DNA of 64,000 bases from an uncultured Candidatus Saccharibacteria bacterium (GCA_964350735.1 CAYGKO010000001.1:18134-82133); one strand, 5' to 3'; numbered from the stretch's first letter, positions 10,856-43,094 are shown. Notes: a model not told the origin generated them from the letters alone. Made by a program: numbers and translations.

Positions 10856-11005
10856 GGTTTTAGTGATTATGTAAATTCTATATTTTGCTAGTCATTCTGG
10901 AAAAATTGGATGAAGTACGAAGTACATGAGAAAAATAATTCGAGACGTACTAAGTGGTACGGTGAGAATTATTTTTTAAAGTGTACTGAAGTAATTCGCC
11001 GATTT

Positions 11006-14110: not shown

Positions 14111-17100
14111 TTATTGTTTCTGGAATGAAACGGTTAAAGAATGCTCACCAGCAACCACCTCTTCTCCTTCCGTTCGGTCAAACACGATCTCGTCTGCCCC
14201 GACGGTCTTTTGAATTTCAGCCCTAAAGGTTTCTACCACGGCTTCCCCACCATCGGAAGCTTGGACGGTGAGCACAATCCGGTCACTGGCTTCGAGCCCA
14301 GCTTGCTTGCGCATATTTTGCACGGCTCGGATAAACTCGCGGGCATCACCTTCAGTCTGGAGCTCCGGCGTGATGGTTGTATCGAGTACGACTATCTCGG
14401 CAAGGCCGGTATCAACAACTACATCTTTCACGTTCATTTCGTCAGCAATGATTTGTCGATACACTTCGTCCACTTCAGTTTGAATTGTGAGCAGACGAAG
14501 GGGTTGACGAACCTTCATCCCGGCCTTGGTACGTGCCTCAAGCGCGGCAGTAACGACTTCACGCACGGTTTGCATAGTGGCGATTATCTCAGCCTCCACT
14601 TCTCCTGCCTCTGGCCAGGCACTGAGATGCACACTTTCCGCCTGATCATCAGATCGAATCGCCCGCCAGAGATACTCAGCATAAAACGGCATACTTGGCG
14701 CCATTAGATGAGCCAACGTCTCGAGCGTGTAGCGCAAGGTAGCAATCGCTGCTGTACGATCCTCAACATCCCCTCCCTTGAGCCGATCTCGTGAGCGGCG
14801 CAGATACCACACGGATAAATCATCTACCAGGTCAGTAATTGGCCGCGTCGCTTTATCGAGCTCGTAGTTCTTAAAGCCCGCCGTGATCTCAGTGGTCGCT
14901 TCTGCGACCCGCGCCAGCATCCAACGATCCAACACATGAGTCGAATCTGATGCAGCTACTGTACCGTCGGCAAACATCTGGTACATCGCCAACACATTGT
15001 GCAATCGGCCAATGTTCTTTCGCTGTAGTTCAGTTACTTCTTTCTCAGAGAAGTTCAAATCCTCCCCTTTAATGATTGATGATGACAATAGGTAAAAACG
15101 CATCGCATCTGCTCCCTGTCGTTCAACCAGCTCTACCGGATCAGGATAGTTCTGTAGTGACTTACTCATCTTCTTACCATCTTCTGCTAAGACAAGACCA
15201 TTGGTAATCACATTCTTAAATGGTGACTTCCCAAATAAGGCGACGCCGAGCACGGTCAATGAGTAGAACCAGCCACGGGTTTGGTCCACTGCTTCGGAAA
15301 TAAAGTCAGCGGGGAATCGTACTCCATCTGCCATATTGGCGATATCAAGATTTTCAAATGGGTAGTGAGTTTCCGCATACGGCATCGAGCCACTCTCAAA
15401 CCAACAGTCAAACACATCCGGCACCCGTTCGAGCTGTACGCCGTCCTCTTCAAGGACCACATCATCAATATACGGTCGATGGAAATCGAGCTCGTATTTG
15501 TCGTTGTGCGGCAACGGCGCAAAGTCGAGCTCCCGGACTTCCGCATTCGCAAAACGCTTGCCATCAGCATCATGGTCAAAATCAGTTTCAGCCAACACGC
15601 TGCCGTGCGCGACAGCCGCTAGCATTCGCAGTGGTGAATTATGTGACACGATCAAAATCGTCTCCCCTTCATGAGCGGCTTCAATGTCATACAAGAATGA
15701 CCCCATGCGATCACGAACCGATGCCCATGACTCACCACCAGTTGGTGCACAATCACACCACTGTGCTCCGCTCGCCACAAAGGCTTGGTACTCAGCGTTG
15801 GGCTTACCCTCAAGCTCACCGAGTTGGATTTCTCCAATCCTCTCGTCATACACAAGAGCATCGTCTCCAAGACCCAAACCAGCACGCACCAACTCAGCTG
15901 TCGCCTTGGTGCGCTCAAATGGTGAGGCGATGATCTTCGTCACACCAGCGTCTTTAAGATGTTCGAGGGCTGAGTCAATCTGCTTCTTCCCCTTCTCAGT
16001 CAGTGGGTTAGCTCCAGCGATATCAGTCTGTACCACATCAGCGGCATTACTCTCACTCTCACCGTGGCGCATGGTAAAGAAGGTGTTGCCACGCTTTGGT
16101 ACGTAGACCTGCAGCTCGGCTAAAGAACCGAAGACTTTAAACGCTTTTGTTTCGGAATTTCGCCAGATCGGTAGCGGTGCTCCCCAGTAGCGTTGCCGGC
16201 TCACCGCCCAGTCACGAGCGCCTTCCAGCCACTTACCAAAGCGGTTCGTGCCGACATGCTCTGGCACCCACTTCACTTTATTATTTTCAGCCACCAGCTG
16301 ATCCTTGATCTTCGTCACCTCCACAAACCACGACGTGGTGGCGTAGTTCAAGAGTGGTGTATCACAACGCCAACAGTGCGGGTAGCTGTGCGTGATATTT
16401 TCTTTCTTCAAAAGTCGACCGTTTGCCTTCAGGGCTTTCACAATCTCGATATCAGCATCAAGGTGTGTCACTCCGGCTTCGTCATCATCTTTTGGTTTTA
16501 CGAGCTGTCCCGCGAAGTCAGTGATAAAGTCCTTAAAGTGTCCGGCTTCATCGACGTGGTGCACGATTGGTACGTTGTGCTCTTGCGCCAGACGCATATC
16601 GTCTTCACCAAAGGCTGGCGCTAAGTGCACCGCTCCCGTTCCTTCTTCGCCCAACTCAACGTAGTCAGCATGCAGAATCTGCCAGGCGTTTTCTTTACCA
16701 GCAAAGTCTTCTTCCTTCAGCCACGGGAATGGGGGTTCGTAACGTTGGCCGACTAATTCGGCTCCGGACAGTTCTCCAATCACTTCATACTCTAGGCCAT
16801 CAAGTTGCGACAAGCGCTCTTTCGCCAGGATTACAACTTCACTGTCTGCTTCAGTGGTGACACGCACCTTCGCATAGACATAGTCTTTATGCACAGCAGC
16901 CGCTAAGTTCCCTGGCATTGTCCATGGCGTGGTCGTCCACACCAAAAGTGACGCGTTGTCAGGGTCATCGAGTAGCGGCAGCTTCACTGTAATGGCGATG
17001 TCTTTAATATCTTTGTAGCCTTGGTTGACCTCAAAGTTCGACAACGTCGTCCCACACCGTGGACACAGATGCATCGTTTTGAAGCCTTCGTACACCAAAC

Positions 17101-17650
17101 CTTTCTCATGCAGCTGCTTAAAGACCCACCACACACTTTCGGTGTAGGTACTATCCATCGTCTTGTAGTCATCGTCCATGTCAACGAACCGTCCCATCTG
17201 CGGAATGATCCGACGCCAATCATCAGCGTACTCCATCACCGTGTCCCGGGCCTGTTCGTTGAAGTTCTTAATGCCGTACTCCTCAATGTCGCGCTTCGTC
17301 GCTAGACCAAGCTTCTTCTCGATCAGGTTCTCAAGCGGCAAGCCATGACAATCCCACCCCCACTTCCGCCGGACACGGTAGCCATTCATGGTCCAAAAGC
17401 GTGGCACCGCGTCTTTAATCGTCCCCGCTAAAATATGTCCGTAGTGCGGCAAGCCAGTCGCAAACGGCGGCCCATCATAAAAAACAAAATCCCCGACCGG
17501 CTCATTGCCCGCTGGAGTTTCTAAACTCTTTTTAAATACATCATGCTCCTGCCAAAACGCTAGTATCGTTTCTTCACGCAGCGCTACCTCACTCTTTTCA
17601 GTTGTTTCTATTTTAGTATTCATATTGTCTTTTGTATGCGTATCAGGCAT
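14111..17650 (-). CDS. ileS: Isoleucyl-tRNA synthetase (type 2-like) with inserted histidine phosphatase domain
   Basis: Carries the PPFATGLPHYGH (HIGH) motif, WTTTPWT editing domain, YPHCWRC and KMSKS. The 1179 aa length is explained by an inserted domain of about 190 aa. Confidence 0.9.
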   Translation of the reverse strand: MPDTHTKDNMNTKIETTEKSEVALREETILAFWQEHDVFKKSLETPAGNEPVGDFVFYDGPPFATGLPHYGHILAGTIKDAVPRFWTMNGYRVRRKWGWDCHGLPLENLIEKKLGLATKRDIEEYGIKNFNEQARDTVMEYADDWRRIIPQMGRFVDMDDDYKTMDSTYTESVWWVFKQLHEKGLVYEGFKTMHLCPRCGTTLSNFEVNQGYKDIKDIAITVKLPLLDDPDNASLLVWTTTPWTMPGNLAAAVHKDYVYAKVRVTTEADSEVVILAKERLSQLDGLEYEVIGELSGAELVGQRYEPPFPWLKEEDFAGKENAWQILHADYVELGEEGTGAVHLAPAFGEDDMRLAQEHNVPIVHHVDEAGHFKDFITDFAGQLVKPKDDDEAGVTHLDADIEIVKALKANGRLLKKENITHSYPHCWRCDTPLLNYATTSWFVEVTKIKDQLVAENNKVKWVPEHVGTNRFGKWLEGARDWAVSRQRYWGAPLPIWRNSETKAFKVFGSLAELQVYVPKRGNTFFTMRHGESESNAADVVQTDIAGANPLTEKGKKQIDSALEHLKDAGVTKIIASPFERTKATAELVRAGLGLGDDALVYDERIGEIQLGELEGKPNAEYQAFVASGAQWCDCAPTGGESWASVRDRMGSFLYDIEAAHEGETILIVSHNSPLRMLAAVAHGSVLAETDFDHDADGKRFANAEVRELDFAPLPHNDKYELDFHRPYIDDVVLEEDGVQLERVPDVFDCWFESGSMPYAETHYPFENLDIANMADGVRFPADFISEAVDQTRGWFYSLTVLGVALFGKSPFKNVITNGLVLAEDGKKMSKSLQNYPDPVELVERQGADAMRFYLLSSSIIKGEDLNFSEKEVTELQRKNIGRLHNVLAMYQMFADGTVAASDSTHVLDRWMLARVAEATTEITAGFKNYELDKATRPITDLVDDLSVWYLRRSRDRLKGGDVEDRTAAIATLRYTLETLAHLMAPSMPFYAEYLWRAIRSDDQAESVHLSAWPEAGEVEAEIIATMQTVREVVTAALEARTKAGMKVRQPLRLLTIQTEVDEVYRQIIADEMNVKDVVVDTGLAEIVVLDTTITPELQTEGDAREFIRAVQNMRKQAGLEASDRIVLTVQASDGGEAVVETFRAEIQKTVGADEIVFDRTEGEEVVAGEHSLTVSFQKQ
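15590..16110 (-). other. Phosphoglycerate-mutase-like histidine phosphatase domain inserted within IleRS
   Basis: FFTMRHGESESN ... SHNSPLRMLAAVAHG lies in frame between the WGAPLPIW and LDFHRPYIDD segments of IleRS. Confidence 0.55.
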
Positions 17651-20497: not shown

Positions 20498-20748
20498 TTA
20501 TTATCCCTAGGTAATGCTGCTTGTTGATTAGTTACAAAGAAATCAACATGACTTTCAAGTTCATCATTAACTGAAAACCCAGAATCGTGCAATAACTTTA
20601 CTGCTTGTGCAACAGTAATCTCATTTTTAATGGCCCTATCTAAAAACTGTCTAACGGAAGTTAATGTGTCGTAGGCTTGCCTCAGATCAGTATACGAAAA
20701 AATCTCCATTGGATCTCCTTTCCTTCTAGGTAACTCAAAGGCTTTCAT
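20494..20748 (-). CDS. Hypothetical protein
   Basis: 84 aa, convergent with and overlapping the 20177 ORF by 4 nt. Confidence 0.3.
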   Translation of the reverse strand: MKAFELPRRKGDPMEIFSYTDLRQAYDTLTSVRQFLDRAIKNEITVAQAVKLLHDSGFSVNDELESHVDFFVTNQQAALPRDNN

Positions 20749-20769
20749 AGGATGTAGTATAACGCACCT

Positions 20770-20903
20770 AAAAGAACGGCGCCTGTAGGCGCCGTTCTTT
20801 TGTGTACTCTCCTTCTTTACTAAAACAAATAGATTTGCTCAAGATACGCGGCGGACAAGAAAAAAGACCCGAGTGCTGCACGTGCAGAGTGAGGGTCTTT
20901 TTT
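20770..20903. terminator. Two strong bidirectional hairpins with flanking A/T runs
   Basis: The hairpins are aaaagaacggcgcctgtaggcgccgttctttt and aaaaaagacccgagtgctgcacgtgcagagtgagggtctttttt. Confidence 0.5.
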
Positions 20904-20995
20904 CGTAGTCCAACAAAGTAGGTTGGGTGAATTATTAAGTCTGGGTCAAGTTTCTAATTCGCTTACGCTCATAAGAACTTCCTCCCCGGCCTCGA

Positions 20996-21076
20996 TTGTT
21001 TTTGTGCTGGGAAACGCACAAAAACATATCTCCGGCTATAAACGCTAGAAAACCATCCACAGGGATGGTTTTCTTT
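20996..21076. terminator. Hairpins downstream of rplB (11-bp stem tgtttttgtgc/gcacaaaaaca; aaaaccatccacagggatggtttt + ctttt)
   Basis: Read directly from the sequence. Lies at the end of the truncated S10-type operon. Confidence 0.5.
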
Positions 21077-21083
21077 TACGCGT

Positions 21084-21932
21084 TTAGCGTCGTTTTCCTA
21101 CCTTTCGGCGAGAAACGATAAGCTTGTTGCTGTACTTCTTCGGTGACCTTGTCTTCTGTCCCTTTCCGGTTGGACGACCTTGCTTGGTGCGAGATCGTTT
21201 GTGTCCTCGAGGAGACTTACCTTCACCACCACCATGCGGGTGGTCAACAGCGTTCTTCGCAGTACCACGAGTCTTCGGCCGAAGTCCCATGTGGCGAGCG
21301 CGTCCCGCTTTACCGATGTTCACCAAACGGTGTTCTTCGTTTGACACTTCACCGATTGACGCCCAACAAGATGAAATAATCTTTCGAATTTCAGTCGAAG
21401 GCATCTTCAGCTGGGTGTAGCCACCATCATGGGCTACTACTTCAGCGTAGTTACCCGCTGAGCGAGCCACGCGTCCACCACCTTCCGGCTTCATTTCGAT
21501 GTTGTACACAAAGGTACCAAGTGGTACTTTCGCGAGCGGCATTCGGTTACCAGTTTTGGCTTTCGCTGTTTCTGACACAATGAATGTATCATCTACCTTC
21601 ATCTTTTGTGGTACCAGCACGTAGCGTCGTTCCCCATCTTTATACAGTACCAAAGCGATGAATCCAGAACGATACGGATCATATTCAATTGATTCGATTT
21701 TTGCTTCAATATCTTTCTTGTCGAACTTGAAGTCCACCATTCGATATTTCCGCTTGTTACCGTTTCCACGGTACCAGTTGGTGATACGTCCCTGACTGTT
21801 ACGTCCACCAGTTGATTTCTTACCTTTGGTAAGCGCTTTCGCTGGCTTACTTCGGTTAGTAGTGAGGTACTTCTTGTATTCGATCACGGTCATCCCACGA
21901 CGGCCCGGACTGGTTGGTTTGAGTTTTTTCAT
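21084..21932 (-). CDS. rplB: 50S ribosomal protein L2
   Basis: 282 aa with conserved L2 C-terminal motifs (GGGxxGK..RS). Confidence 0.9.
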   Translation of the reverse strand: MKKLKPTSPGRRGMTVIEYKKYLTTNRSKPAKALTKGKKSTGGRNSQGRITNWYRGNGNKRKYRMVDFKFDKKDIEAKIESIEYDPYRSGFIALVLYKDGERRYVLVPQKMKVDDTFIVSETAKAKTGNRMPLAKVPLGTFVYNIEMKPEGGGRVARSAGNYAEVVAHDGGYTQLKMPSTEIRKIISSCWASIGEVSNEEHRLVNIGKAGRARHMGLRPKTRGTAKNAVDHPHGGGEGKSPRGHKRSRTKQGRPTGKGQKTRSPKKYSNKLIVSRRKVGKRR

Positions 21933-21934
21933 AC

Positions 21935-22312
21935 CTATACAATTGAGATTGAATCACCACTTTTAAGATATACGTAGGCCTTCTTCATGCCTGATTCCGT
22001 AACTTTTCGACCCTTACTACGTGACATAAATTGTCGAGGTGCTTTATTTACGATGTTCACCTTCACCGGCGTCACTGAGAATAGTTGCTGTACAGCGTCA
22101 CGAACGTCGTACTTAGTTGCGTCCTTTCGAACCACAAATGTGTATACGTTTCGTTCACCCATCTTTACCGCTTTTTCGGTAACTCGAGGTTTGATGATGA
22201 CACCTGAGAGATCTCGGTCTGTTGCAAGCGCAGTAGATTTCACTACTGGTTTCACAGCCTTGTCTCCTTCAGCTTTCTGCTCAGTCTTTTTGCTTCGACT
22301 AAAGAGAGCCAT
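21935..22312 (-). CDS. rplW: 50S ribosomal protein L23
   Basis: 125 aa with an L23 core. Position between rplD and rplB is conserved. Confidence 0.8.
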   Translation of the reverse strand: MALFSRSKKTEQKAEGDKAVKPVVKSTALATDRDLSGVIIKPRVTEKAVKMGERNVYTFVVRKDATKYDVRDAVQQLFSVTPVKVNIVNKAPRQFMSRSKGRKVTESGMKKAYVYLKSGDSISIV

Positions 22313-22314
22313 AA

Positions 22315-23010
22315 TTATTTTTCTGAGGCGGTAGATCCAATACGTGACTCAAGAATCTCAAGAGCCTTTGCTGGTTCTGCCATTACTACATATTTGTAAG
22401 TAAGAAGATCAACTGGGTTGATATCCTTCACTTGAGCAACCACCAGGTTGCCGAAGTTGCGGAAGCTCTTCTCAGTTGCTTCGTTGCGTTCTGAAAGTAC
22501 CACGAGGGCAGCATTCTTTCGCTTGGTTGCCATATCATCGTGCTTGCTGCCCGCTGCGATCGCCTTGATCGCTGCTTTTGCTTCAGCTGTCTTTGGTGAT
22601 GCAAAATTGATTTGATCAATAAAAACAACTTCGCCATCAGCATGCTTCTTAGAAAGTGTTGCCGCTAATGCTTTGGCGCGAACTTTCTTATTGATTTTCT
22701 TGGCGTAGTTACGGTCGTTTCGCGGGCCAAAAGTGACACCTCCCCCAGTCCAGATCGGTGAACGACGAGAACCATGTCGCGCGCGACCAGTTCCCTTCTG
22801 TCGCCATGGCTTTCGTCCACCACCGCGTACTTCACTTCGATCTTTCGTGTGAGCTGTATTAGCTCGGGCGTTACTCTGCATAGAGACCACTACTTCGTGC
22901 ACCAAGTCAGCGTTCCACTTTTCACCGAAAACGGCTTCGGGTAGAGTCAACTTTCCTGATTCTTTTCCTTCGATTGTGAATATTGTTGTTTCCATACGTT
23001 TATACGCCAC
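22315..23010 (-). CDS. rplD: 50S ribosomal protein L4
   Basis: 231 aa, L4 family. Adjacent to rplC. Confidence 0.85.
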   Translation of the reverse strand: MAYKRMETTIFTIEGKESGKLTLPEAVFGEKWNADLVHEVVVSMQSNARANTAHTKDRSEVRGGGRKPWRQKGTGRARHGSRRSPIWTGGGVTFGPRNDRNYAKKINKKVRAKALAATLSKKHADGEVVFIDQINFASPKTAEAKAAIKAIAAGSKHDDMATKRKNAALVVLSERNEATEKSFRNFGNLVVAQVKDINPVDLLTYKYVVMAEPAKALEILESRIGSTASEK

Positions 23011-23620
23011 GAACCTCTACTAATGAACCCCGTCGACCCGGAATTGCGCCTTTGATAAGCAACAGATTGTCTGCTGCATTCACCTGCAAGACTTGTAGGT
23101 TCTTGACCGTTACCCGGTCAGCTCCCATTCGTCCAGCCATTTTCTTTCCTTTAAAAACACGAGCTGGCCCAGTCGCACCGATTGAACCGGCTTTACGACT
23201 TGAGTGCTTTCGTCCGTGAGAGGCTTTGTCTCCTTTGAAGTTGTAGCGCTTAACTACACCTTGGAAACCTTTACCTTTTGAAGTAGCTGACACTACTACA
23301 GTATCGCCAGCTTCAAACACAGATGCATCGAGAGTTTGACCTTTCTCGAAGCCTTCGAGAGTTTCGTCAAAACTAGCGCGTGCGCGGAATTCTTGTACGT
23401 GTGCAAATGCACCGCCAAGATGTCCTTTTTCGGCTTTGTTTACCCGGTGCTCCTTTTGTGAACCAGTTGCCACCTGGACCGCTTGGTAGCCGTCAGAATC
23501 GGTGGTTTTTAGCTGTGTTATCATAGTTGGTTCAACCCGGAGTACCGTTGCTGGATGACACACACCATCGGCGTCAAACACCTGTGTCATGCCATCTTTG
23601 GTTCCTAAAATAAATTTCAT
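23000..23620 (-). CDS. rplC: 50S ribosomal protein L3
   Basis: 206 aa with L3 motifs (GTKDGMTQVF ... GxxKGKGFQG). Confidence 0.9.
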   Translation of the reverse strand: MKFILGTKDGMTQVFDADGVCHPATVLRVEPTMITQLKTTDSDGYQAVQVATGSQKEHRVNKAEKGHLGGAFAHVQEFRARASFDETLEGFEKGQTLDASVFEAGDTVVVSATSKGKGFQGVVKRYNFKGDKASHGRKHSSRKAGSIGATGPARVFKGKKMAGRMGADRVTVKNLQVLQVNAADNLLLIKGAIPGRRGSLVEVRGV

Positions 23621-36247: not shown

Positions 36248-36991
36248 TTAATCTATTGACGGTGGCAAGAATCGTTCGTACAACACTCGAAATGTATCCT
36301 CAGCGAACGGTACGATGAGCTTGGCTTTTTGGTTTTCGGTTGTAAAGGTCACCCCCGGCACATTACGGATTATAGCGACTGGTTGACACTCAGCTGTTTC
36401 GCCCATCACTACATTAGCAGCGGCTGCCAAACCGTCAGCTAAGTTACTCACCTCAATCTTCATCTCACGACCAAACAAATCTTCTTCTCCCACATGATTG
36501 ATCACCGGTTCAAACCCCCAGAATCCAATCGACACCCCCGCGGCTCCGCGACGCAACGGATGGGAGTGACTATCAGTCACCAATACCCCAACATTCTGTA
36601 AACTAAATCGTCGACATAAGTATCCATGAATAGCTTCCGCACTTTTAAAAGGCTCCTTAGGCAACATAACGAAATACCCATTTGCGTTACTTTCATCGAT
36701 GCCGGCTGTACCAATAAAAGCACCGTGCTTCACGGTGAGATCCGAACCCCAATAGTCACGCGGAATGGCTAAATCAGCTTCTGCTTGGACCAAAGCAGCT
36801 TTGTCGGTTTCTGCTACTAAGCGACAATTTCCTTCGTGGATAGCTACTACCTTAGAAGAGACAGCTACAATGTCTCCCTCCATCACTAAATCAAGTGATT
36901 CATCGAGCACTGCAAATAAATCATCTTTTGGTGGAGTCAGGATTCTGGTTTTAATTGGAATTATTTCCATAAGCTGCGCAGAGTATAACAA
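36248..36991 (-). CDS. CofE-like gamma-glutamyl ligase family protein (F420-0:glutamyl ligase fold)
   Basis: GDIVAVSSKVVAIHEG, GTAGIDESNANG and TDSHSHPLRRGAAGVSIGFWGF match conserved CofE/FbiB N-domain blocks. Confidence 0.5.
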   Translation of the reverse strand: MLYSAQLMEIIPIKTRILTPPKDDLFAVLDESLDLVMEGDIVAVSSKVVAIHEGNCRLVAETDKAALVQAEADLAIPRDYWGSDLTVKHGAFIGTAGIDESNANGYFVMLPKEPFKSAEAIHGYLCRRFSLQNVGVLVTDSHSHPLRRGAAGVSIGFWGFEPVINHVGEEDLFGREMKIEVSNLADGLAAAANVVMGETAECQPVAIIRNVPGVTFTTENQKAKLIVPFAEDTFRVLYERFLPPSID

Positions 36992-37130: not shown

Positions 37131-37556
37131 TTAGTCCTTAACGTGTACTCCCATTGATTTACAGGTTCCTTCGATAATTTTCATTGCTGCATCGATATCG
37201 TTTGCAGAAATATCTACCATCTTAGCTTCAGCAATTTCTTTAATCTGCGCTCGCGTAATGTCGCCAACTTTAGAAACTAGGTTCTTTCCAGATCCCTTAT
37301 CTTTTCCAATTGCCTTAAGGATCATTCGTGATGCAGGAGCAGTCTTGCAAACAAAGTCGAACGACCGGTCATCGTATACGTTGATGATTGTTGGCACAAT
37401 CTCCCCCATTCGGTCTCGCGTCTGTTCGTTGAATTGGTTTACGAATTCACCAATGTTAATACCCGCTTGTCCCAGTACTGGCCCAAGTGGTGGCGCTGGT
37501 GTTGCTTTTCCTCCGATCGCCTGTACCTTTACCTGCTTAATTAATTGCTTTGCCAT
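37131..37556 (-). CDS. rplK: 50S ribosomal protein L11
   Basis: 141 aa with the L11 N-terminal PPLGPVLGQAGINI motif. Confidence 0.9.
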   Translation of the reverse strand: MAKQLIKQVKVQAIGGKATPAPPLGPVLGQAGINIGEFVNQFNEQTRDRMGEIVPTIINVYDDRSFDFVCKTAPASRMILKAIGKDKGSGKNLVSKVGDITRAQIKEIAEAKMVDISANDIDAAMKIIEGTCKSMGVHVKD

Positions 37557-37656
37557 AAAATAATTTTAGTTGTTGATAAAAGGATGATTGGTCCAAACAA
37601 TCATTCCCTTTAGAAGCGCCGCTAGAATAACCTATATATGTAGGAAAATCAATCAC

Positions 37657-38283
37657 TTAACGATCTGTAAACGCAACCTTAATGCCAAGAGCGACTAGTG
37701 CCCCACCAAGGAATTTGTTAAACACGCTCTGAAATCGATTGAGTTGGTGTTGTACTCGTTCTTGGGTAAAGGCCAAGGCAACAATCGTAAACCAGAGAGT
37801 AGTATTAGTGATCATAATTAGACTCATGACCATGAGAATGATACCGGGAGTTGCTGGATCGATTACGAGCGTAAAGAGACTTAAGAAAAAGAGGGTCACC
37901 TTTGGATTAAGAGCATTAGTCAGAAAACCAATCCGCACCGCTTGCCAGCGCGAAATCTCAGCCTTACTTTCTTCAGCTGTTACGGAGACTGCTTGAGACT
38001 TACTCAGGATGGCAGTAATTCCTAGATACACTAAATACGCCGCGCCCAAGAATTTAATAATTGTAAACAACAAAATCGACTGTGATATTAGTAAAGCTAA
38101 ACCAAGGACGCAGTACAACATATGAACACTGATACCAGCCCCCATGCCAACAGCAGTCCAAATACCCGTCCGTCGAGAATAAGTTAGAGAGTTTTTAACG
38201 ACTACAATAAAATCAGGACCAGGACTAATAACCCCCAACAGATGGATGAGTGTCACCGTACCAATAAGTGCTAGATATTCCAT
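37657..38283 (-). CDS. LysE/RhtB-family amino-acid exporter
   Basis: 6-TM layout with the LysE-type N-terminal signature (ISPGPDF) starting from MEYLALIG. Confidence 0.65.
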   Translation of the reverse strand: MEYLALIGTVTLIHLLGVISPGPDFIVVVKNSLTYSRRTGIWTAVGMGAGISVHMLYCVLGLALLISQSILLFTIIKFLGAAYLVYLGITAILSKSQAVSVTAEESKAEISRWQAVRIGFLTNALNPKVTLFFLSLFTLVIDPATPGIILMVMSLIMITNTTLWFTIVALAFTQERVQHQLNRFQSVFNKFLGGALVALGIKVAFTDR

Positions 38284-38304
38284 AGAAATACATAGTAGCA
38301 AAAA

Positions 38305-38826
38305 TTAGGCGAGGTGTAACTTCTGATAATTAAATGTATCTAGATCAGATTTCAAATTATCCATACTATTCCCTGCCAACACCCCACCAGCAATAAACTT
38401 TTCTTGCGTAATATCTGCCAGACAAAAGTCTGACATCATAAAGTTATCTTTTTCTGTCTCTGTTTGGAATTCAAAATCAACTACTACTAAGCCAGCAAGA
38501 TCTCCAGTAAATACATCGAACTCAGCCGTTCTTCCTTCATGTTCGTAAAAATAGCGTAGTTTAGAAACTCGACGGCACCGAATTGATTTAAAACTGTTAA
38601 ATTCTTCTTCCATTAAAGGAATCGTGGTCTCTTCTTGTTTTGACGCATCTCCTTCGGAGGTCGGTACCTTACGAGTCAATTCGTACCTGTCCCCATTTTT
38701 ACGAATCCGTAAGTCAGCGTGATCGGTGCCATTTTCAACATATAAATCTATAATCTCTTTAGCGTCACAGGAGGATAACCCAACAGGGAGTGACTTCGCT
38801 AAGTACGTTAGTTCTAGTTCAATCAT
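38305..38826 (-). CDS. CYTH-domain protein (triphosphate tunnel metalloenzyme / class IV adenylate-cyclase-like)
   Basis: N-terminal IELELTYLA (the ExExK-type CYTH signature). Alternating charged beta-strands such as VVVDFEF. Confidence 0.5.
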   Translation of the reverse strand: MIELELTYLAKSLPVGLSSCDAKEIIDLYVENGTDHADLRIRKNGDRYELTRKVPTSEGDASKQEETTIPLMEEEFNSFKSIRCRRVSKLRYFYEHEGRTAEFDVFTGDLAGLVVVDFEFQTETEKDNFMMSDFCLADITQEKFIAGGVLAGNSMDNLKSDLDTFNYQKLHLA

Positions 38827-38830
38827 ACAT

Positions 38831-39910
38831 TTAATTTGGATCTAAATATCTCTTGAATTCTGTTAAATTTACACTTACAGATTGTTCACTACGATTAACA
38901 ACTAGTTCCCCGTCACTTGTTACATGTGCGTCAAAACCTTCAATATAATCAATTGGACTCGTAAGAGTCGTAGTATCATTTTGATCCCAATTAGAGTCCT
39001 GCAGAGCCGCATACGATCCTAACTGAAACAAAAATGAACGCATCGTCTCCTCATGAGTAAAATCAAGCTCGATATATTTTGCGCCTTCCTCTACTTCTGT
39101 TCCAGCACTTTCTAGGTGAGATACAAAACGCTGCGCTAACTCTCGACCATTTGAACAGTGTGCTTCTTCTAAAGCGGTTATAAAGGGTTCTGGTAACGTG
39201 TCAGTAACAAAAGCATGCCAAAACTCAGCAGTCTTGCCTCCATATTGCTCTTTTACTAATCCTTCAAATGTATCAAGGGCAGCTAGTCGTCGCTCTAATT
39301 CAGCTGGGATAGTATCTGGATCTAACTCAGCAAAGTCCGCATCAAGAGACTCACCATAATCACCCAAAAACGGTCGCTTAGCGCGATTGTATGGCAATAC
39401 TTGATTTTCACGTGGACCACCAGTAGTGTCTCTCAGGCGTTCACTCTCTAATTCAGCTTTTTGTGGCGCCTGCTCTTTCACCACTAAACCAGATTGATAC
39501 GCGAGTGCTTTTTCAAAAATTGCCCCGGTAATTGAAGTTCGTGCCACTGCCCGCATATTCTTTTTTTTCTTCTCACCTTCAGTGGGTGCTGGCGTATTAA
39601 CTTCAGATCTTGAGATGATGGCTGTTGGACTTTCTCCAATCACAATCATCTGATCTGTTTCACCAAAAAGAGCGGCAGCCCCTTTGGCCCAAGCAATTGC
39701 ATCATGTTTTGCTTGTCTAACCCCTTCTTCTGTCAAACTACCTGGGACCCCATTTTTGGTGTTAGGCTTATGCCATTCTGCATGACGACGAAATGAAAAA
39801 GTTTGCACTGAGGTGTTCTGCCAACGTTCTGGATCAAGAAACAATTCTGACTCAATTTGTTGTTCAACACCATGTTTCATGCCTGTTGCTTCATTAAATC
39901 TTTCGCTCAT
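38831..39910 (-). CDS. Hypothetical protein (possible degenerate histidine-phosphatase-like N-terminus)
   Basis: 359 aa. FRRHAEW...LTEEGVRQA loosely resembles the RHG..LT..G..QA signature, but Gly is replaced by Ala. Rest is acidic with no motif. Confidence 0.3.
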   Translation of the reverse strand: MSERFNEATGMKHGVEQQIESELFLDPERWQNTSVQTFSFRRHAEWHKPNTKNGVPGSLTEEGVRQAKHDAIAWAKGAAALFGETDQMIVIGESPTAIISRSEVNTPAPTEGEKKKKNMRAVARTSITGAIFEKALAYQSGLVVKEQAPQKAELESERLRDTTGGPRENQVLPYNRAKRPFLGDYGESLDADFAELDPDTIPAELERRLAALDTFEGLVKEQYGGKTAEFWHAFVTDTLPEPFITALEEAHCSNGRELAQRFVSHLESAGTEVEEGAKYIELDFTHEETMRSFLFQLGSYAALQDSNWDQNDTTTLTSPIDYIEGFDAHVTSDGELVVNRSEQSVSVNLTEFKRYLDPN

Positions 39911-39919
39911 ATCAAATAA

Positions 39920-41938
39920 TTATAGCTTTCTAATAACACCTGTGTTGGCATTAACTTCAATCTTATCCCCCGTTTTAATTTTACTCGTTGCTCCTTCTAC
40001 TCCAACCACGCACGGGATCTGTAACTCTCGAGCAACAATGGCCGCATGGGATAACATACCTCCTTGGTTTGTTATTATAGCAGCAGCTTTTCCACACGCA
40101 GCTATAATTTCAGGCACAGTTGAATCAACCACCAATACTTCACCTGCCCGTATCTCTTGCACAAGTTGACTCATTTCTTCAAAATTTGAGGCAGATACGT
40201 GAGCCACTCGTGCAATAGCTTGTACAACCCCCGGGAAGGCTGTTAGCCCAACCAAATCATCAGTGTCAGACTCATAGATGATATGCTCAACTTTTTCACC
40301 AGCGTGTTCGTGCAAGAGAACAAGTTCATCAAAATACATAACATAGCCTTTCCGTCGCTCGGCCAGTAACTCAGGGGTGATTCGTTGCGTAGGATTGTCA
40401 AATAGGTTGACTACCTCAGGCATTTTATACCACTGTAAATCCGACAGAGGAATAGAAAATATTTCTGATACCCACTGCAATAACTGCTTCATTAAGGCAT
40501 CATCTGTGTATCCAATCTGGTTGACCATTTTTCTCCCCCCTAATTTAAACTTTTCAAAATCACGAATAAAGTTTAGGTCCTCAGCTTTAGCTTCGTAAAT
40601 ACCATCAGTATAGAAAAATTCAGTAAAGCGGTATTGGGCCGATAATTCATCGACGGCATCCAAGTACGGCAACAGATTCGCTTTTGTGCACTCCATTTTT
40701 AAAGTCTGAAACGTATCCTGAACACTCTCATAAGACTGAAAAACATCTGATTTTAATTGCTGGTATGCAACTGCATCTAGATAGATTGATTTAGCTTTAG
40801 TTTTAGTTGCTTCTAATGCCCCTTTTAATATATAGCTTTTAAAAACACCGTTACTGTACGTCACCAACCCACCCAAGTCAGCAATATGAAACAGAAATCC
40901 GAAGGCAAAAAAATAACTAGTGGCGTCATCTATCTGAGTAAACTTTTGATACTCATCAAGATTAATGGCCCGTATCTCAGTTTGCGAATGCTTAATAGTT
41001 TGATTAAAAGTTGTAATTGGACGACTCTGTGTAACATATAAAATATCGTCAGCAAATACCCACTCAACATCACATGGCTCGTTAGTACTTACTTCGATTG
41101 ATCGCATCACTTTCGCAACTTCGCTAATTTCCATATCTGTTAAAACTCTTGATGTGGCTTCTTGATCTGACAAATCTCTCCACTCATTCCCGGTATCAGT
41201 TGAAAACAATCCTTTGGTTTTTGTGGCTATTTTTTCATCAATAATACTATTCGCGCCTTTCGCTACAACATAATTATCTGGTGTAATAACACCTGACACT
41301 ATTGCCTCGCCTAAACCGAAAGCTGCTTCAATGACCATTTCATCATAATTATTATTAACTGGATTTATAGAAAATCCTACACCCGATTTTTCACCTAAGA
41401 TCATCACTTGAACAACAACCGCCATTTTTAGAGACGTATTTAAAATATCATGCTGTGAACGATACATGAGCGCTTCAGCTGAGTACAGCGAGGACCAACA
41501 TTTTTTAACAGCTTCTAACAGATCATCTGACTGCACGTTCATATAACTTGAAAATTGCCCAGCCCAAGCAGCAGAACTACTATCCTCAACCGTAGCTGAA
41601 GATCGAACTGCAACAGCCACACTTCCTAGTGAATTATATGAATCAAAAATTTCTGTAATCAATTGTTTAGGAATAGCGCACCCTTGTATTACTTTCTGGA
41701 TATAGACCGCCTCTGCTCGTATTTGTTCAATCTGTGAGGGACTAGTAATTGAAAGAATGTGGTTAATTTCATTCTGAATATCCCTCGTAACCAACTCAAA
41801 TGCGTCTGTTTCTATTACAAAACCAGGTGGTACATTCACCCCCAAAGAAATAAGTTTTCCAAGCGAGTGGGCTTTTCCTCCGATTTCATTAATATCAGCA
41901 TTAGCTAATTCTGCGAGAGATCGCATATACATAGACAT
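39920..41938 (-). CDS. PEP-utilising-enzyme family kinase, rifampin-phosphotransferase-like architecture (ATP-grasp N-domain, unknown middle domain, swivel phospho-His domain)
   Basis: N-terminal PPDK_N/ATP-grasp (GGKAHSLGKL...GFVI). C-terminal mobile domain ITNQGGMLSHAAIVARELQIPCVVGV with the catalytic His. No C-terminal PEP/pyruvate TIM barrel. Confidence 0.6.
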   Translation of the reverse strand: MSMYMRSLAELANADINEIGGKAHSLGKLISLGVNVPPGFVIETDAFELVTRDIQNEINHILSITSPSQIEQIRAEAVYIQKVIQGCAIPKQLITEIFDSYNSLGSVAVAVRSSATVEDSSSAAWAGQFSSYMNVQSDDLLEAVKKCWSSLYSAEALMYRSQHDILNTSLKMAVVVQVMILGEKSGVGFSINPVNNNYDEMVIEAAFGLGEAIVSGVITPDNYVVAKGANSIIDEKIATKTKGLFSTDTGNEWRDLSDQEATSRVLTDMEISEVAKVMRSIEVSTNEPCDVEWVFADDILYVTQSRPITTFNQTIKHSQTEIRAINLDEYQKFTQIDDATSYFFAFGFLFHIADLGGLVTYSNGVFKSYILKGALEATKTKAKSIYLDAVAYQQLKSDVFQSYESVQDTFQTLKMECTKANLLPYLDAVDELSAQYRFTEFFYTDGIYEAKAEDLNFIRDFEKFKLGGRKMVNQIGYTDDALMKQLLQWVSEIFSIPLSDLQWYKMPEVVNLFDNPTQRITPELLAERRKGYVMYFDELVLLHEHAGEKVEHIIYESDTDDLVGLTAFPGVVQAIARVAHVSASNFEEMSQLVQEIRAGEVLVVDSTVPEIIAACGKAAAIITNQGGMLSHAAIVARELQIPCVVGVEGATSKIKTGDKIEVNANTGVIRKL

Positions 41939-41954
41939 TACTCATCATCATACC

Positions 41955-41985
41955 AAAAAGCCGAACACTATGTGCTCGGCTTTTG
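41955..41985 (-). terminator. Intrinsic terminator-like hairpin about 20 nt upstream of the kinase start codon
   Basis: aaaaagccgaacactatgtgctcggctttt. On the minus strand the stem is followed by UUUUUGG. Confidence 0.5.
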
Positions 41986-41989
41986 ATTT

Positions 41990-42233
41990 TACTTTGTATT
42001 CTTGCAAAAATGTAGAAATTGAATGAGTCACCAACTAAAACTGACAGAATCAGATGAAATACAAGGAGCCTAAAGAAAAATGACCCGAGTGGGGCAGGTG
42101 CCCAGCGAGGATCATTTTTGTTGTAGCGACGCAGTAGTGCGCTGATTCTGTCAGTTTTAAACTTTTTTGGTCTAGCGATTTGCCCAAGGACAACCCAAAT
42201 CGGGACATAAAAGGTTTATAGTCGCTACGCTCG
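41990..42233 (-). promoter_or_regulatory. Structured leader between nusG and the kinase operon, containing an 18-bp perfect inverted repeat (42036-42053 / 42142-42159)
   Basis: Arms taaaactgacagaatcag / ctgattctgtcagtttta enclose about 88 nt with internal gggca/tgccc and aaaaatga/gatcattttt pairings. A 57-codon uORF is also present. Confidence 0.3.
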
Positions 42234-42779
42234 TTAAACCTTTTTAACTTGGAGGAAGTCGAGTTCTACCGGAGTTTCGCGGCCGAACATTGAAACGAGT
42301 ACTTTCACCTTCCCTCGTTCCTCATCAATCTCTCCTACCTTCCCTTCTAGTTCCTTGAATGGGCCATCATTGATGATGATCATGTCATCAATCGAGAGGT
42401 CTACTTGGTGCTTCGGAGTATCTGCTTCCATTCGGCCCATTAGCGCCTTGTACTCTTCTTCAGAGAGCGGTACTGGCTGTGTTCCACTACCAACGAATCC
42501 GGTTACTCGGGGGGTGTTTCGTACGACGTACCATGATTCGTCATCTACGATCATCTCTACCAAGACGTACCCTGGATATACTCGCTCTTCTTCAGTGACA
42601 CGCTTACCACCTTTCACTCGAATCTTTTTTTCCGTTGGGACCACTACATCAAAAATCTTATCGTTCATGTTGAGCGAATCCATTCGTTGCTTGAGGTTAC
42701 GGGCGACAGCGTTTTCATACCCAGAGTAGGTATGAATCGCGTACCAGTTTCGTTCACCAGTGCTGTGTTGCTTAGCCAT
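42234..42779 (-). CDS. nusG: Transcription termination/antitermination factor NusG
   Basis: N-terminal WYAIHTYSGYEN (NGN domain) and C-terminal KOW. 181 aa. Confidence 0.9.
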   Translation of the reverse strand: MAKQHSTGERNWYAIHTYSGYENAVARNLKQRMDSLNMNDKIFDVVVPTEKKIRVKGGKRVTEEERVYPGYVLVEMIVDDESWYVVRNTPRVTGFVGSGTQPVPLSEEEYKALMGRMEADTPKHQVDLSIDDMIIINDGPFKELEGKVGEIDEERGKVKVLVSMFGRETPVELDFLQVKKV

Positions 42780-42784
42780 ATAAA

Positions 42785-42964
42785 TTAAATAACGCTGTTA
42801 AGAACCTGAGTAAAGACGTAGTCAAACGCTCCTACAAACAAGGCTACGAAGATAGAGACACCAATAACTAACGCACTATAAATGATAGTTTGCGTCTGAG
42901 TTGGCCAAGATACGTGCTTCATTTCAGCTACGGTATCTTTGAAATATTTGCTAATTCGATTCAT
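42785..42964 (-). CDS. secE: Preprotein translocase subunit SecE
   Basis: 59 aa from MNRISKYFKD with a single C-terminal TM. Conserved position upstream of nusG. Confidence 0.7.
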   Translation of the reverse strand: MNRISKYFKDTVAEMKHVSWPTQTQTIIYSALVIGVSIFVALFVGAFDYVFTQVLNSVI

Positions 42965-43094
42965 GATGTGTGAAAAATAATGTGGTTCTAAAAAACCCCT
43001 CGCGGGGTGAATTAGATATATAATACGCTTTGTTTGAGAAAAGTAAAGAGCGACCAATTTACGGTCGCTCTTTACTTTTTCTACACGCTTTCGA

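What the first reader, a model, noticed from the sequence alone, without database searches (positions are those of the whole stretch)
37657..42233. Four-gene operon inserted between nusG and rplK: RPH-like PEP-utilising kinase, hypothetical, CYTH, LysE exporter, preceded by an attenuator-like leader
secE-nusG and rplK are almost universally adjacent. Here 4.6 kb intervenes, encoding a 672-aa protein with an ATP-grasp PPDK_N domain, a 250-aa unknown middle domain and a C-terminal swivel phospho-His domain. This domain order matches rifampin phosphotransferase and lacks the PEP/pyruvate TIM barrel. Downstream are a 359-aa hypothetical, a CYTH triphosphate-tunnel protein and a LysE-family exporter. 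This looks like a small-molecule phosphorylation, modification and export module, possibly antibiotic or metabolite inactivation. About 20 nt before the kinase ATG is an intrinsic-terminator hairpin. The 240-nt leader upstream has an 18-bp perfect inverted repeat enclosing about 88 nt and a 57-codon uORF. This is an attenuator or riboswitch-like layout.
Basis: partly seen in the sequence, partly recalled or inferred. Interest (0 to 1): 0.6.

Follow-up and report, generated by a model that had tools for sequence, protein, structure and literature searches.

The report
Dikinase–phosphatase gene pair inserted at nusG–rplK
In one candidate-phyla-radiation (Patescibacteria) bacterium, four genes have landed in a variable spot between nusG and rplK; two of them (an ATP-driven dikinase and a histidine-phosphatase-like protein) form an uncharacterised pair that recurs in these tiny-genome bacteria and in related archaea, and the supposed regulatory leader is a copy of a dispersed structured repeat followed by an old terminator.

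Summary
On the minus strand lie nusG, a 295-nt spacer, a 672-aa ATP-grasp/central/swivel-His protein, a 359-aa ORF, CYTH, a LysE/RhtB exporter and rplK.

- **Insertion:** 66 related contigs (NusG 70-88% identical) show nusG followed by rplK, 17-1614 nt apart. None carries these genes there. The site holds different small cargo in different relatives.
- **Kinase:** it belongs to the RPH/PpsAB/HpeHI small-molecule dikinase superfamily. It fails the RPH equivalog models, and its ~240-aa central domain matches nothing known.
- **The "hypothetical":** it is a divergent histidine-phosphatase-fold protein. Relatives of it sit next to swivel-His proteins in 7 of 8 contexts examined. A homologous set starts 8-30 nt after a dikinase in 13 of 74 loci. 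This two-gene module is the real unit.
- **CYTH and LysE:** conserved linkage is not supported. CYTH relatives (64-74% identical) sit elsewhere in all six contexts examined (five look-ups); LysE was checked only by tblastn.
- **The "attenuator":** it is one of four copies in this window of a clade-specific structured repeat with strong covariation. A terminator follows it that also precedes the rplK promoter in at least three relatives.

The substrate is unknown.

The parts
42234..42779 (-). nusG, the upstream boundary of the insertion (secE lies at 42785-43057)
   Evidence: TIGR00922 scores 200 bits against a cut-off of 135.7. Pfam NusG and KOW are hit.
42036..42159 (-). One copy of a clade-specific structured intergenic repeat. 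The outer helix is the 18-bp perfect inverted repeat (42036-42053 with 42142-42159). The covariance-model core is 42052-42137. The apical, terminator-like hairpin is 42073-42122.
   Evidence: Inverted repeats I1 and I2. The fold has z = -5.3. Covariance model R1 scores 87.6 bits here and finds three further copies in the window. Covariation is strong: 90% of cells paired and a score of 0.805, against 0.13-0.18 for slid controls. The other copies have outer helices of different sequence.
42050..42208 (-).
   Evidence: It lies across the structured repeat. Related copies keep the base pairs through changes on both sides. No conservation of this reading frame was examined.
41951..41984 (-). Intrinsic-terminator hairpin (GCCGAGCAC-ATA-GUGUUCGGC) followed by a U-run; ancestral to the locus
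   Evidence: Inverted repeat I3 and the sequence itself. It aligns with the hairpins that lie between the repeat and the rplK promoter in L091, L100 and L102.
41947..41955 (-). Possible extended -10 promoter (TGgTATGAT), 8 nt before the kinase ATG. If it is used, the transcript would have a very short leader or none. This is an inference only.
   Evidence: Read directly from the sequence. The consensus scan, which needs a -35 hexamer, did not list it.
39920..41938 (-). Small-molecule dikinase-like protein, 672 aa. ATP-grasp at residues 17-322, family-specific central domain at about 323-560, swivel phospho-His domain at 597-667 with T623-x-x-G-G-x-x-x-H631.
   Evidence: Pfam and NCBIfam. There are 6473 homologues at E<=1e-10. 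The AF2 model has pLDDT 81. Foldseek's top full-length match is RPH 5hv1, E 2e-33. The central domain has no PDB or Pfam match.
38831..39910 (-). Divergent histidine-phosphatase-superfamily protein, 359 aa, partner of the dikinase. Invariant R42, H43, S94, P95, R124, D184, H286.
   Evidence: Word-index search finds only itself. Exhaustive HMMER finds 30 relatives. Alignment A2. The profile hits the PGAM-like chain 3eoz at E 6e-4. The AF2 model has pTM 0.83. Every named Foldseek match belongs to a histidine acid phosphatase, phytase/MINPP or PGAM-type family.
38305..38826 (-). CYTH-domain protein, 173 aa; probably a native gene with no conserved link to the kinase
   Evidence: PF01928 scores 26.8 bits against a cut-off of 23.2. 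There are 493 homologues, up to 74% identical, in candidate-phyla-radiation (CPR) bacteria and in DPANN archaea. All six contexts examined (five look-ups) lack a dikinase, a histidine-phosphatase-like gene or LysE.
37657..38301 (-). LysE/RhtB-family exporter, 214 aa (208 aa from the ATG at 38283)
   Evidence: PF01810 at E 8.9e-35. TIGR00949 scores 169 bits against a cut-off of 183.95.
37557..37656 (-). Retained rplK promoter-like sequence and leader (…TATTCTAGCGGCGCTTCTAAAG…)
   Evidence: It aligns with the TTGCAA-N17-TAcgAT promoter and GCTTCTAA leader upstream of rplK in relatives.
37131..37556 (-). rplK (L11), the downstream boundary of the insertion
   Evidence: TIGR01632 scores 169.6 bits against a cut-off of 141.85.

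Best explanation
The 4.6-kb segment is a genome-specific insertion into a variable intergenic spot between nusG and rplK of a Patescibacteria genome.

Its functional core is a two-gene module. The first gene encodes a swivel-histidine dikinase of the RPH / phenylphosphate-synthase / HpeHI type. By analogy with those enzymes, the ATP-grasp domain loads a phosphoryl group from ATP onto H631 of the C-terminal swivel domain. That domain then carries it to the family-specific central domain, where an unknown acceptor X is phosphorylated (ATP + X + H2O -> AMP + Pi + X-P).

The second gene encodes a divergent histidine-phosphatase-fold enzyme that keeps the full catalytic set of residues. It acts on the same phosphoryl flux. 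Either it hydrolyses or rearranges X-P, or it takes the phosphate directly from the swivel phospho-histidine.

CYTH and the LysE/RhtB exporter are probably co-transcribed neighbours rather than parts of the mechanism.

The structured spacer is not a dedicated sensor. It is one copy of a clade-specific repeat found in gene 3' regions, followed by the terminator that in relatives sits just before the rplK promoter. The cassette is then expressed either by read-through or from a minimal extended -10 promoter next to the ATG.

Shown: the anatomy, the family memberships, the synteny, the gene-pair conservation and the repeat. Inferred: the chemistry, the direction of phosphate flow, the substrate and the promoter.
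For: **Insertion**
- In 66 related contigs (NusG 70-88% identical) nusG is followed by rplK, 17-1614 nt apart. None has these four genes there.
- The larger gaps hold unrelated small ORFs, for example what looks like a HicA/HicB-type pair in L105.
- GC3 of the four genes is 0.28-0.39, against a window mean of 0.44.

**Kinase**
- PPDK_N plus PEP-utilizers, with no TIM barrel.
- The swivel motif TxxGGxxxH is present (motif taken from PMC12167813).
- RPH is the best full-length structural match.
- The family is very large in CPR bacteria and DPANN archaea.

**Partner protein**
- R42-H43, R124 and H286 are invariant.
- The profile hits a PGAM-like PDB chain.
- Every named Foldseek match is a histidine-phosphatase-type enzyme.

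**Pairing**
- Relatives of the 359-aa protein lie next to a swivel-domain protein in L023, L085, L167, L166, L082 and L168.
- A homologous set (hhalign probability 97.4%, E 1.5e-11) starts 8-30 nt after a dikinase swivel domain in 13 of 74 loci.

**Spacer**
- The covariance model finds four copies in the window, lying after nusG, rplB, ssb and a DUF11 gene.
- It finds 23 copies in close relatives and none in 1.28 Mb of other CPR/DPANN DNA.
- Covariation is strong.
- The terminator and the rplK promoter are positionally conserved.
Against: - No substrate is identified. The central domain has no detectable relative of known function.
- Tight spacing (3-9 nt) and uniformly low GC3 fit all four genes having arrived or being expressed together, so a genome-specific functional link to CYTH and LysE cannot be excluded.
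- Only six CYTH contexts were examined (five look-ups), and LysE linkage was tested only by tblastn.
- The histidine-phosphatase-like partner follows only about 18% of dikinase genes sampled, so most family members work without it.
- The window's 359-aa protein itself does not reach any Pfam threshold.
- No close orthologue of the kinase exists in the database (best 41% identity over the full length), so when and how it arrived is unknown.
- No target-site duplication or mobility gene marks the cassette.
Confidence: 0.62

Rival explanations
1. All four genes form one operon that phosphorylates, modifies and exports a small molecule (antibiotic or metabolite inactivation, RPH-like). A riboswitch or attenuator in the leader switches it on.
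For: The genes are co-oriented with 3-9 nt gaps. All four have low GC3. The domain order is RPH-like and RPH is the top structural match. An exporter lies at the end of the cluster. A stable structure and a terminator lie upstream.
Against: The RPH equivalog HMMs fall far below their cut-offs. The central domain is about half the size of the RIF-binding domain and has no match (sizes from PMC4844700). CYTH relatives lie elsewhere in all six contexts examined. No LysE is found near 80 other kinases. The leader structure is a dispersed repeat found after four unrelated genes. The terminator predates the cassette. There is no Rfam match. In these tiny genomes most genes are tightly packed on one strand anyway: 45 of 64 ORFs in the window are on the minus strand.
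Confidence: 0.12
2. A protein-level phosphorelay. The histidine-phosphatase-like protein acts on the swivel phospho-histidine itself. It would work either as a SixA-like phosphohistidine phosphatase that resets the kinase, or as the acceptor whose own catalytic His43 is primed by the swivel domain and then passes the phosphate on.
For: The partner family travels with the swivel domain whatever the ATP-binding module. That module is a fused ATP-grasp (window, L085, L167), a split ATP-grasp (L166), or a HATPase_c-plus-swivel fusion of 422-424 aa that has no room for a 240-aa central domain (L082, L168). Histidine-phosphatase-fold enzymes work through a phospho-histidine intermediate, and SixA is a member that dephosphorylates phospho-His proteins (established knowledge, not tested here). 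LMW-phosphatase-like genes also recur next to these kinases.
Against: There is no direct evidence of interaction. The conserved polar motifs in the kinase's central domain (KTEFFYTD, KLxGRxYLN) argue that this domain binds an acceptor of its own. Most dikinases of the family lack the partner.
Confidence: 0.22
3. The kinase gene is a truncated or decayed PEP synthase or PPDK, that is, a pseudogene remnant.
For: The best NCBIfam hits by E-value are PEP synthase models, and public annotations call relatives 'phosphoenolpyruvate synthase'.
Against: Those hits cover only the ATP-grasp and swivel parts and score 342 against a cut-off of 598. The swivel domain is C-terminal, not central. Many full-length relatives (35-41% identical over 97-100% of the query) share the same length and central domain, and others carry a duplicated central-plus-swivel module. 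The reading frame is intact and the AF2 model is confident.
Confidence: 0.01

Closest known systems
Rifampin phosphotransferase (RPH; PDB 5HV1/5FBS)
   Same: Three-part order: N-terminal ATP-grasp, a central acceptor-binding region, and a C-terminal swivel phospho-His domain with TxxGGxxxH. It is the best full-length structural match. Stogios et al. place RPH in a wide family of small-molecule dikinases whose central region diverges (PMC4844700).
   Different: The central domain is about 240 aa against about 430 aa. It has no detectable sequence similarity to the RIF-binding domain. The RPH equivalog HMMs are far below cut-off. Nothing here points to rifamycins.
Two-component phenol-type dikinases (phenylphosphate synthase PpsAB, CreHI, HpeHI; PDB 9GOJ for HpeI)
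   Same: Same ATP-grasp and swivel-His chemistry. HpeI is a strong structural match to the N-terminal domain. Split versions of the present family exist next to the histidine-phosphatase-like partner (L166).
   Different: The window's protein is fused. Its central domain is unrelated by sequence. There is no aromatic-catabolism context, and the host is a reduced-genome Patescibacteria bacterium.
PEP synthase / pyruvate phosphate dikinase
   Same: Homologous ATP-grasp and swivel domains.
   Different: There is no PEP/pyruvate TIM barrel. The swivel domain is at the C-terminus. The regulatory Thr of GGxTxH is replaced (GGMLSH, with the comparison made from established knowledge).
Histidine phosphatase superfamily (PGAM-like branch 1 and acid-phosphatase branch 2; SixA as a phospho-His protein phosphatase)
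   Same: The RH motif, the second Arg and the second His are invariant. The predicted fold matches.
   Different: The window protein does not reach the Pfam threshold. It has large insertions and a C-terminal beta extension with an N-x-G-F-D motif shared only within this family. It is genomically tied to swivel-His proteins, which is not a known feature of the superfamily.
REP/BIME-type intergenic palindromic repeats
   Same: Multiple copies lie in gene 3' regions, co-oriented with transcription. They form stable hairpins, some of them flanked by A- and U-runs like terminators.
   Different: It is longer, about 125 nt with four stacked helices. The internal-loop sequence is conserved. The element is restricted to one Patescibacteria clade. 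It is not in Rfam. Its function is untested.

Membership tests
Rifampin phosphotransferase (RPH) | N-terminal ATP-grasp domain and C-terminal swivel phospho-His domain | tested here: met
   PPDK_N at 17-322 and PEP-utilizers at 597-667. T623xxGGxxxH631 is present.
Rifampin phosphotransferase (RPH) | Whole-protein match to the curated equivalog models, which include the RIF-binding domain | tested here: not met
   NF041857 scores 305 bits against a cut-off of 999. NF000283 scores 209 against 1700. Matches cover only residues 4-313 and the swivel domain.
Rifampin phosphotransferase (RPH) | Central RIF-binding domain of three subdomains (about 430 aa) | tested here: inconclusive
   The central region is about 240 aa. 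Its profile finds no PDB chain, RPH included, and no Pfam family. The Foldseek alignment to RPH runs end to end, but its score can be explained by the two flanking domains. A domain-only structural comparison could not be run.
Rifampin phosphotransferase (RPH) | Phosphorylates rifamycins | not testable with these tools
   Needs an enzyme assay.
PEP synthase / PPDK | C-terminal PEP/pyruvate-binding TIM barrel, with the swivel domain in the middle | tested here: not met
   No TIM-barrel family is hit. The protein ends with the swivel domain. PEPS models score 342 and 337 against cut-offs of 598 and 740.
Small-molecule dikinase superfamily (Stogios et al. 2016) | ATP-grasp, a variable central domain and a swivel His domain, conserved as a full-length family | tested here: met
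   The family is defined in PMC4844700.
Histidine phosphatase superfamily (359-aa protein) | RHG-type motif with the nucleophilic His, plus the second Arg and second His of the catalytic core | tested here: met
   R42, H43, R124 and H286 are invariant in 29 sequences. The RH and HG-type motifs align to the PGAM-like chain 3eoz.
Histidine phosphatase superfamily (359-aa protein) | Characteristic alpha/beta fold | tested here: met
   The AF2 model has pTM 0.83. Every named Foldseek PDB match is a histidine acid phosphatase, phytase/MINPP or PGAM-type enzyme, with best E 3e-6.
Histidine phosphatase superfamily (359-aa protein) | Pfam His_Phos_1 or His_Phos_2 at the gathering threshold | tested here: not met
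   The window protein has no Pfam hit. Only 4 of 29 relatives give weak His_Phos_1 hits, best E 0.0019.
CYTH (triphosphate tunnel) family | Pfam CYTH domain above the gathering score | tested here: met
   PF01928 scores 26.8 bits against a cut-off of 23.2. The catalytic motif and the substrate were not analysed.
LysE/RhtB exporter family | LysE-type translocator domain over the full length | tested here: met
   PF01810 scores 120 bits against a cut-off of 25.6. The RhtB subfamily model TIGR00949 scores 169 against 183.95, just below its cut-off.
Riboswitch or transcription attenuator controlling the kinase | Match to a known cis-regulatory RNA family | tested here: not met
   There is no Rfam hit at the gathering score in the window other than a tRNA. 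The best permissive hit is 25 bits against a required 72.6.
Riboswitch or transcription attenuator controlling the kinase | The structure is specifically associated with the regulated gene | tested here: not met
   The same element follows nusG, rplB, ssb and a DUF11 gene in this window. It follows nusG in relatives that lack the kinase.
Riboswitch or transcription attenuator controlling the kinase | An alternative antiterminator pairing that competes with the terminator | tested here: inconclusive
   Only weak candidates are seen (15 nt, 73% complementary). The terminator forms in both the MFE and the centroid folds. No dedicated search was made.

The most novel reading that the evidence does not exclude
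The dikinase and its histidine-phosphatase-fold partner form a previously undescribed ATP-driven His-to-His phosphotransfer system. It would be widespread in CPR bacteria and DPANN archaea. The swivel phospho-histidine would charge the catalytic histidine of the PGAM-like protein, which then phosphorylates or isomerises a metabolite. This would act as an Enzyme-I-like relay that runs on ATP instead of PEP.
Probability: 0.12. Interest if true: 0.75.

Novelty: new variant of a known kind. Interest (0 to 1): 0.45.

Why it matters
CPR bacteria and DPANN archaea have very small genomes, yet they keep thousands of copies of this dikinase family. Some copies are duplicated or arranged in tandem. Their substrate is unknown, and they are often mislabelled as PEP synthase or counted as rifampin-resistance genes in resistome surveys (PMC8651080).

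The family has its own central domain and a recurrent histidine-phosphatase-fold partner. This gives a concrete two-protein system to test biochemically. It also cautions against reading these genes as antibiotic resistance.

Separately, the clade-specific structured repeat, and the finding that nusG-rplK and the end of rplB are break or insertion points, are useful for annotation and for understanding genome plasticity in these organisms.

Tried and rejected
- **Truncated PEP synthase:** rejected on architecture and family size.
- **Fusion of the 359-aa protein into the long (1000-1170 aa) kinase forms:** rejected. The extra part is a second central-plus-swivel module.
- **Epimerase_2 and AcnX labels on long forms as substrate hints:** rejected. 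The Epimerase_2 hits lie below its cut-off and overlap or adjoin a swivel domain, and the AcnX label was not reproduced.
- **Sequence link of the central domain to RPH or anything else:** none found.
- **Word-index search for the 359-aa protein:** found only itself. Exhaustive HMMER was needed.
- **CYTH linkage:** five look-ups (six places), none with a kinase, histidine-phosphatase-like gene or LysE.
- **Known RNA family for the spacer:** none.
- **Mobile-element signature:** no direct repeats at the cassette ends, and no integrase or transposase among the four genes.
- **Organism name:** the cluster look-up gave no names.
- **Literature:** no paper in the library joins Patescibacteria, PEP synthase and histidine phosphatase.
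Full report
**1. What is there**

Every gene of interest lies on the minus strand. The order is as follows:
- secE, 42785-43057.
- nusG, 42234-42779.
- A 295-nt spacer.
- A 672-aa protein, 39920-41938.
- A 359-aa ORF, 38831-39910.
- A 173-aa CYTH protein, 38305-38826.
- A LysE/RhtB-family exporter, 37657-38301.
- A 100-nt spacer.
- rplK, 37131-37556.

The four inserted genes are separated by 9, 4 and 3 nt. The spacer holds a perfect 18-nt inverted repeat with 88 nt between its arms. It also holds a terminator hairpin with a T-run that ends 17 nt before the ATG. The repeat is far beyond chance. The whole spacer folds far better than shuffled versions, with z = -5.3. The small corrections are that the spacer is 295 nt and the upstream ORF is 52 codons. 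The homologues found identify the host as a Patescibacteria (candidate phyla radiation, CPR) bacterium.

**2. Is it an insertion?**

I fetched 80 metagenome contigs that encode NusG 70-88% identical to this one. The local gene order is conserved: M10 peptidase, SIMPL, secE, nusG, rplK, then a CofE-like gene, a 135-aa ORF and/or dCTP deaminase.

In 66 contigs both nusG and rplK are present, 17-1614 nt apart. In 59 of these the gap is 364 nt or less. None carries a kinase, the 359-aa protein, CYTH or LysE at that position.

The larger gaps hold different things. L105 has what looks like a HicA/HicB-type pair. L106 has a 230-aa ORF with an N-terminal hydrophobic segment. L113 and L096 have small hydrophobic ORFs. 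One contig, L101, is rearranged after nusG.

So the site is a variable spot in this clade, and the 4.6-kb cassette is specific to this genome. All four genes have GC3 below the window mean: 0.28-0.39 against 0.44 with sd 0.08. No direct repeats or mobility genes mark the ends.

**3. The kinase**

It has a PPDK_N ATP-grasp domain (E 1.5e-82) and a C-terminal PEP-utilizers swivel domain (E 3e-24). There is no PEP/pyruvate barrel. The swivel motif T-x-x-G-G-x-x-x-H described for this enzyme class (PMC12167813) is present as T623...H631.

Every curated NCBIfam model is missed by a wide margin:
- PEP synthase scores 342 against a cut-off of 598.
- RPH scores 305 against 999, and 209 against 1700.
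- PigC scores 280 against 1300.

The protein belongs to a very large set: 6473 proteins at E<=1e-10 among the candidates scored. Its closest full-length relatives (31-41% identical) come from CPR bacteria, and genome hits include DPANN archaea. Short forms of about 670-690 aa share the window protein's architecture end to end. Long forms of 1000-1170 aa carry a second central-plus-swivel module. It is therefore not a decayed PEP synthase.

The AF2 model is good, with pLDDT 81. Its best full-length PDB match is RPH (5hv1, E 2e-33). The ATP-grasp component HpeI of a two-component phenol kinase also ranks high.

The central domain, about residues 323-560, is a beta-alpha-beta unit followed by a long helical bundle. 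It has conserved polar motifs (KTEFFYTD, KLxGRxYLN, R528). A profile of this domain alone finds no PDB chain and no Pfam family. It is about half the size of the RIF-binding domain, which spans residues 327-754 of RPH (PMC4844700).

My conclusion is that this is a member of the small-molecule dikinase superfamily defined by Stogios et al. It is not an RPH, and its acceptor is unknown.

**4. The "hypothetical"**

A word-index search finds only the protein itself. An exhaustive HMMER scan finds 30 distant relatives. Their alignment has invariant R42-H43, S94-P95, R124, D184 and H286. This is the RH...SP...R(A)..T(A)...H(G)E pattern of the histidine phosphatase superfamily.

The profile hits a PGAM-like PDB chain at E 6e-4, and weakly hits two other enzymes of that superfamily. 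An AF2 model built on this alignment is confident, with pTM 0.83. Every named Foldseek PDB match is a histidine acid phosphatase, phytase/MINPP or PGAM-type enzyme. The protein is thus a divergent histidine-phosphatase-fold enzyme that probably keeps its catalytic residues. It does not reach a Pfam threshold.

**5. What travels with what**

Relatives of the 359-aa protein lie next to a swivel-His protein in most contexts examined:
- L085 and L167: directly after a fused PPDK_N-plus-swivel kinase.
- L023: directly before a kinase.
- L166: before a split pair, a 523-aa swivel protein and a 277-aa PPDK_N protein.
- L082 and L168: before a 422-424-aa HATPase_c-plus-swivel fusion.
- L169: no such neighbour is visible; the upstream gene is cut by the contig end and unannotated.

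Counting the window itself, that is 7 of 8 contexts.

Independently, I examined 80 genome loci recovered with the kinase. In 13 of the 74 loci that have enough downstream sequence, a histidine-phosphatase-like ORF starts 8-30 nt after the swivel domain. This set is homologous to the 359-aa family: hhalign probability 97.4%, E 1.5e-11. LMW-phosphatase-like genes also recur beside these kinases.

CYTH behaves differently. It has homologues at 55-74% identity across CPR bacteria and DPANN archaea. In the six contexts examined (five look-ups) its neighbours are an HTH protein and dCMP deaminase, or HU, RNase Y, ClpP, a trypsin-like protease and MscS. A dikinase, a histidine-phosphatase-like gene or LysE is never among them. 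No LysE homologue lies near any of the 80 other kinases, by tblastn.

The best non-self hits are only 41% identical over the full length for the kinase (up to 45% over about half of it) and 38% for its partner. CYTH reaches 74%, close to what the clade's L11 shows. So the conserved unit is the kinase-phosphatase pair. CYTH looks like a native gene, and a functional role for CYTH and LysE in the module is not supported.

**6. The "attenuator"**

The inner part of the spacer resembles sequence found right after nusG in several relatives. It also resembles a second place in the window, after rplB.

A ten-sequence alignment gave a four-helix consensus in which 16 of 21 pairs show compensatory changes. 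A covariance model built from it finds four strong copies in the window, all on the minus strand:
- 42052-42137, after nusG.
- 20837-20921, after rplB.
- 10908-10994, starting 12 nt after a DUF11 gene.
- 1905-1991, starting 20 nt after ssb.

The model finds 23 copies in the close relatives. It finds none in 1.28 Mb of other CPR/DPANN loci. Across those 23 copies, 90% of cells are paired and the covariation score is 0.805, against 0.13-0.18 for slid controls. Note that this alignment was fitted to the model, which favours the structure.

At least two of the other three window copies are also enclosed by an outer helix, but of different sequence. The 18-bp perfect repeat is therefore simply this copy's outer helix. 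There is no Rfam match.

Aligning the intergenic regions shows that relatives have this order: nusG, repeat, terminator hairpin, rplK promoter (TTGCAA-N17-TAcgAT), leader (GCTTCTAA...), rplK. The window's terminator aligns with their terminators. The 100 nt before rplK retain the promoter-like and leader sequence.

The cassette therefore sits between an ancestral terminator and the rplK promoter. The structure upstream of the kinase predates it and is not specific to it. The 52-codon ORF lies across the structured repeat and is probably not coding. A TGgTATGAT sequence directly after the terminator, 8 nt before the ATG, could serve as an extended -10 promoter. This is my reading of the sequence and is untested.

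**7. How it most likely works**

By homology with RPH, PpsAB and HpeHI, the ATP-grasp domain phosphorylates H631. The swivel domain then carries the phosphate to the central domain, where an unknown acceptor is phosphorylated, giving AMP and Pi. The histidine-phosphatase-fold partner then acts on that phosphate. It either hydrolyses or rearranges the product, or it acts directly on the phospho-histidine.

The partner follows the swivel domain even where the ATP module is a HATPase_c domain and no central domain is present. That makes the direct, protein-level alternative worth testing. I give it about 0.2, and 0.12 for a true His-to-His relay.

The chemistry, the substrate and the promoter are inferences. 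The anatomy, the family assignments, the synteny, the gene pairing and the repeat are shown.

**8. Novelty and score**

The dikinase is a new variant within a known superfamily. Its recurrent pairing with a histidine-phosphatase-fold protein, and the structured repeat, do not appear in the literature I could search, though that library is incomplete.

The interruption of nusG-rplK is explained as cargo in a variable site. The riboswitch idea is not supported. Interest is 0.45.

Noticed in passing
window 42052-42137, 20837-20921, 10908-10994, 1905-1991 (all minus strand); relatives L088, L091, L092, L094-L096, L099, L100, L102, L103, L105, L106 (five copies), L108, L109: A clade-specific interspersed structured element lies in gene 3' regions. 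The core is about 85 nt, or about 125 nt with the outer helix. It has four stacked helices, conserved internal-loop sequence (CUCGC / ACUCG) and strong covariation. It has no Rfam match and is absent from 1.28 Mb of other CPR/DPANN DNA. Its function is unknown; it could act as a terminator or stabiliser, or as a recombination hotspot.
   Followed up: partly
window 14111-17650 (minus strand): A 1179-aa class-I aminoacyl-tRNA synthetase (tRNA-synt_1, Anticodon_1) carries a confident His_Phos_1 domain at residues 527-688 (E 3e-32), inserted within the synthetase. This is an unusual fusion.
   Followed up: no
window 20500-23620 (minus strand): The S10-type ribosomal cluster runs L3-L4-L23-L2 and then stops. 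No rpsS follows rplB. Instead come hairpins, a copy of the repeat, a terminator, an 84-aa ORF with no family, DUF2103 on the other strand, and ArgRS. This may be a second break point of a normally contiguous ribosomal operon, marked by the same repeat.
   Followed up: partly
window 36248-36991 (minus strand), and relatives L089, L096, L100, L102: rplK is followed by a CofE-like (F420-0:gamma-glutamyl ligase family) gene rather than rplA. This holds both here and in relatives.
   Followed up: no
L082 9045-10319 and L168 3667-4935: Proteins of 422-424 aa combine a GHKL-type HATPase_c domain with a PEP-utilizers swivel domain. They lie directly after relatives of the 359-aa protein, and a 367-407-aa unknown protein follows. 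L168 also has a separate PPDK_N gene and an LMW-phosphatase-like gene. This looks like a different ATP module wired to the same swivel-partner system.
   Followed up: no
L105 1219-1781; L106 10847-11539; L113 10551-11033: The nusG-rplK gap of close relatives holds unrelated small cargo: what looks like a HicA/HicB-type pair, a 230-aa ORF with an N-terminal hydrophobic segment, and a 160-aa hydrophobic ORF (the labels are my reading of the translations, not family searches).
   Followed up: partly
P0002, P0006 and other long forms; L058: Many CPR dikinases of this family carry a duplicated central-plus-swivel module (1000-1170 aa). In some loci kinase-like matches extend over several kilobases, which suggests tandem copies.
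   Followed up: partly
L173 4200-4826 and 5001-5525: Two CYTH genes lie side by side in one CPR contig. One is a 208-aa paralogue and the other is the 174-aa relative of the window's CYTH.
   Followed up: no
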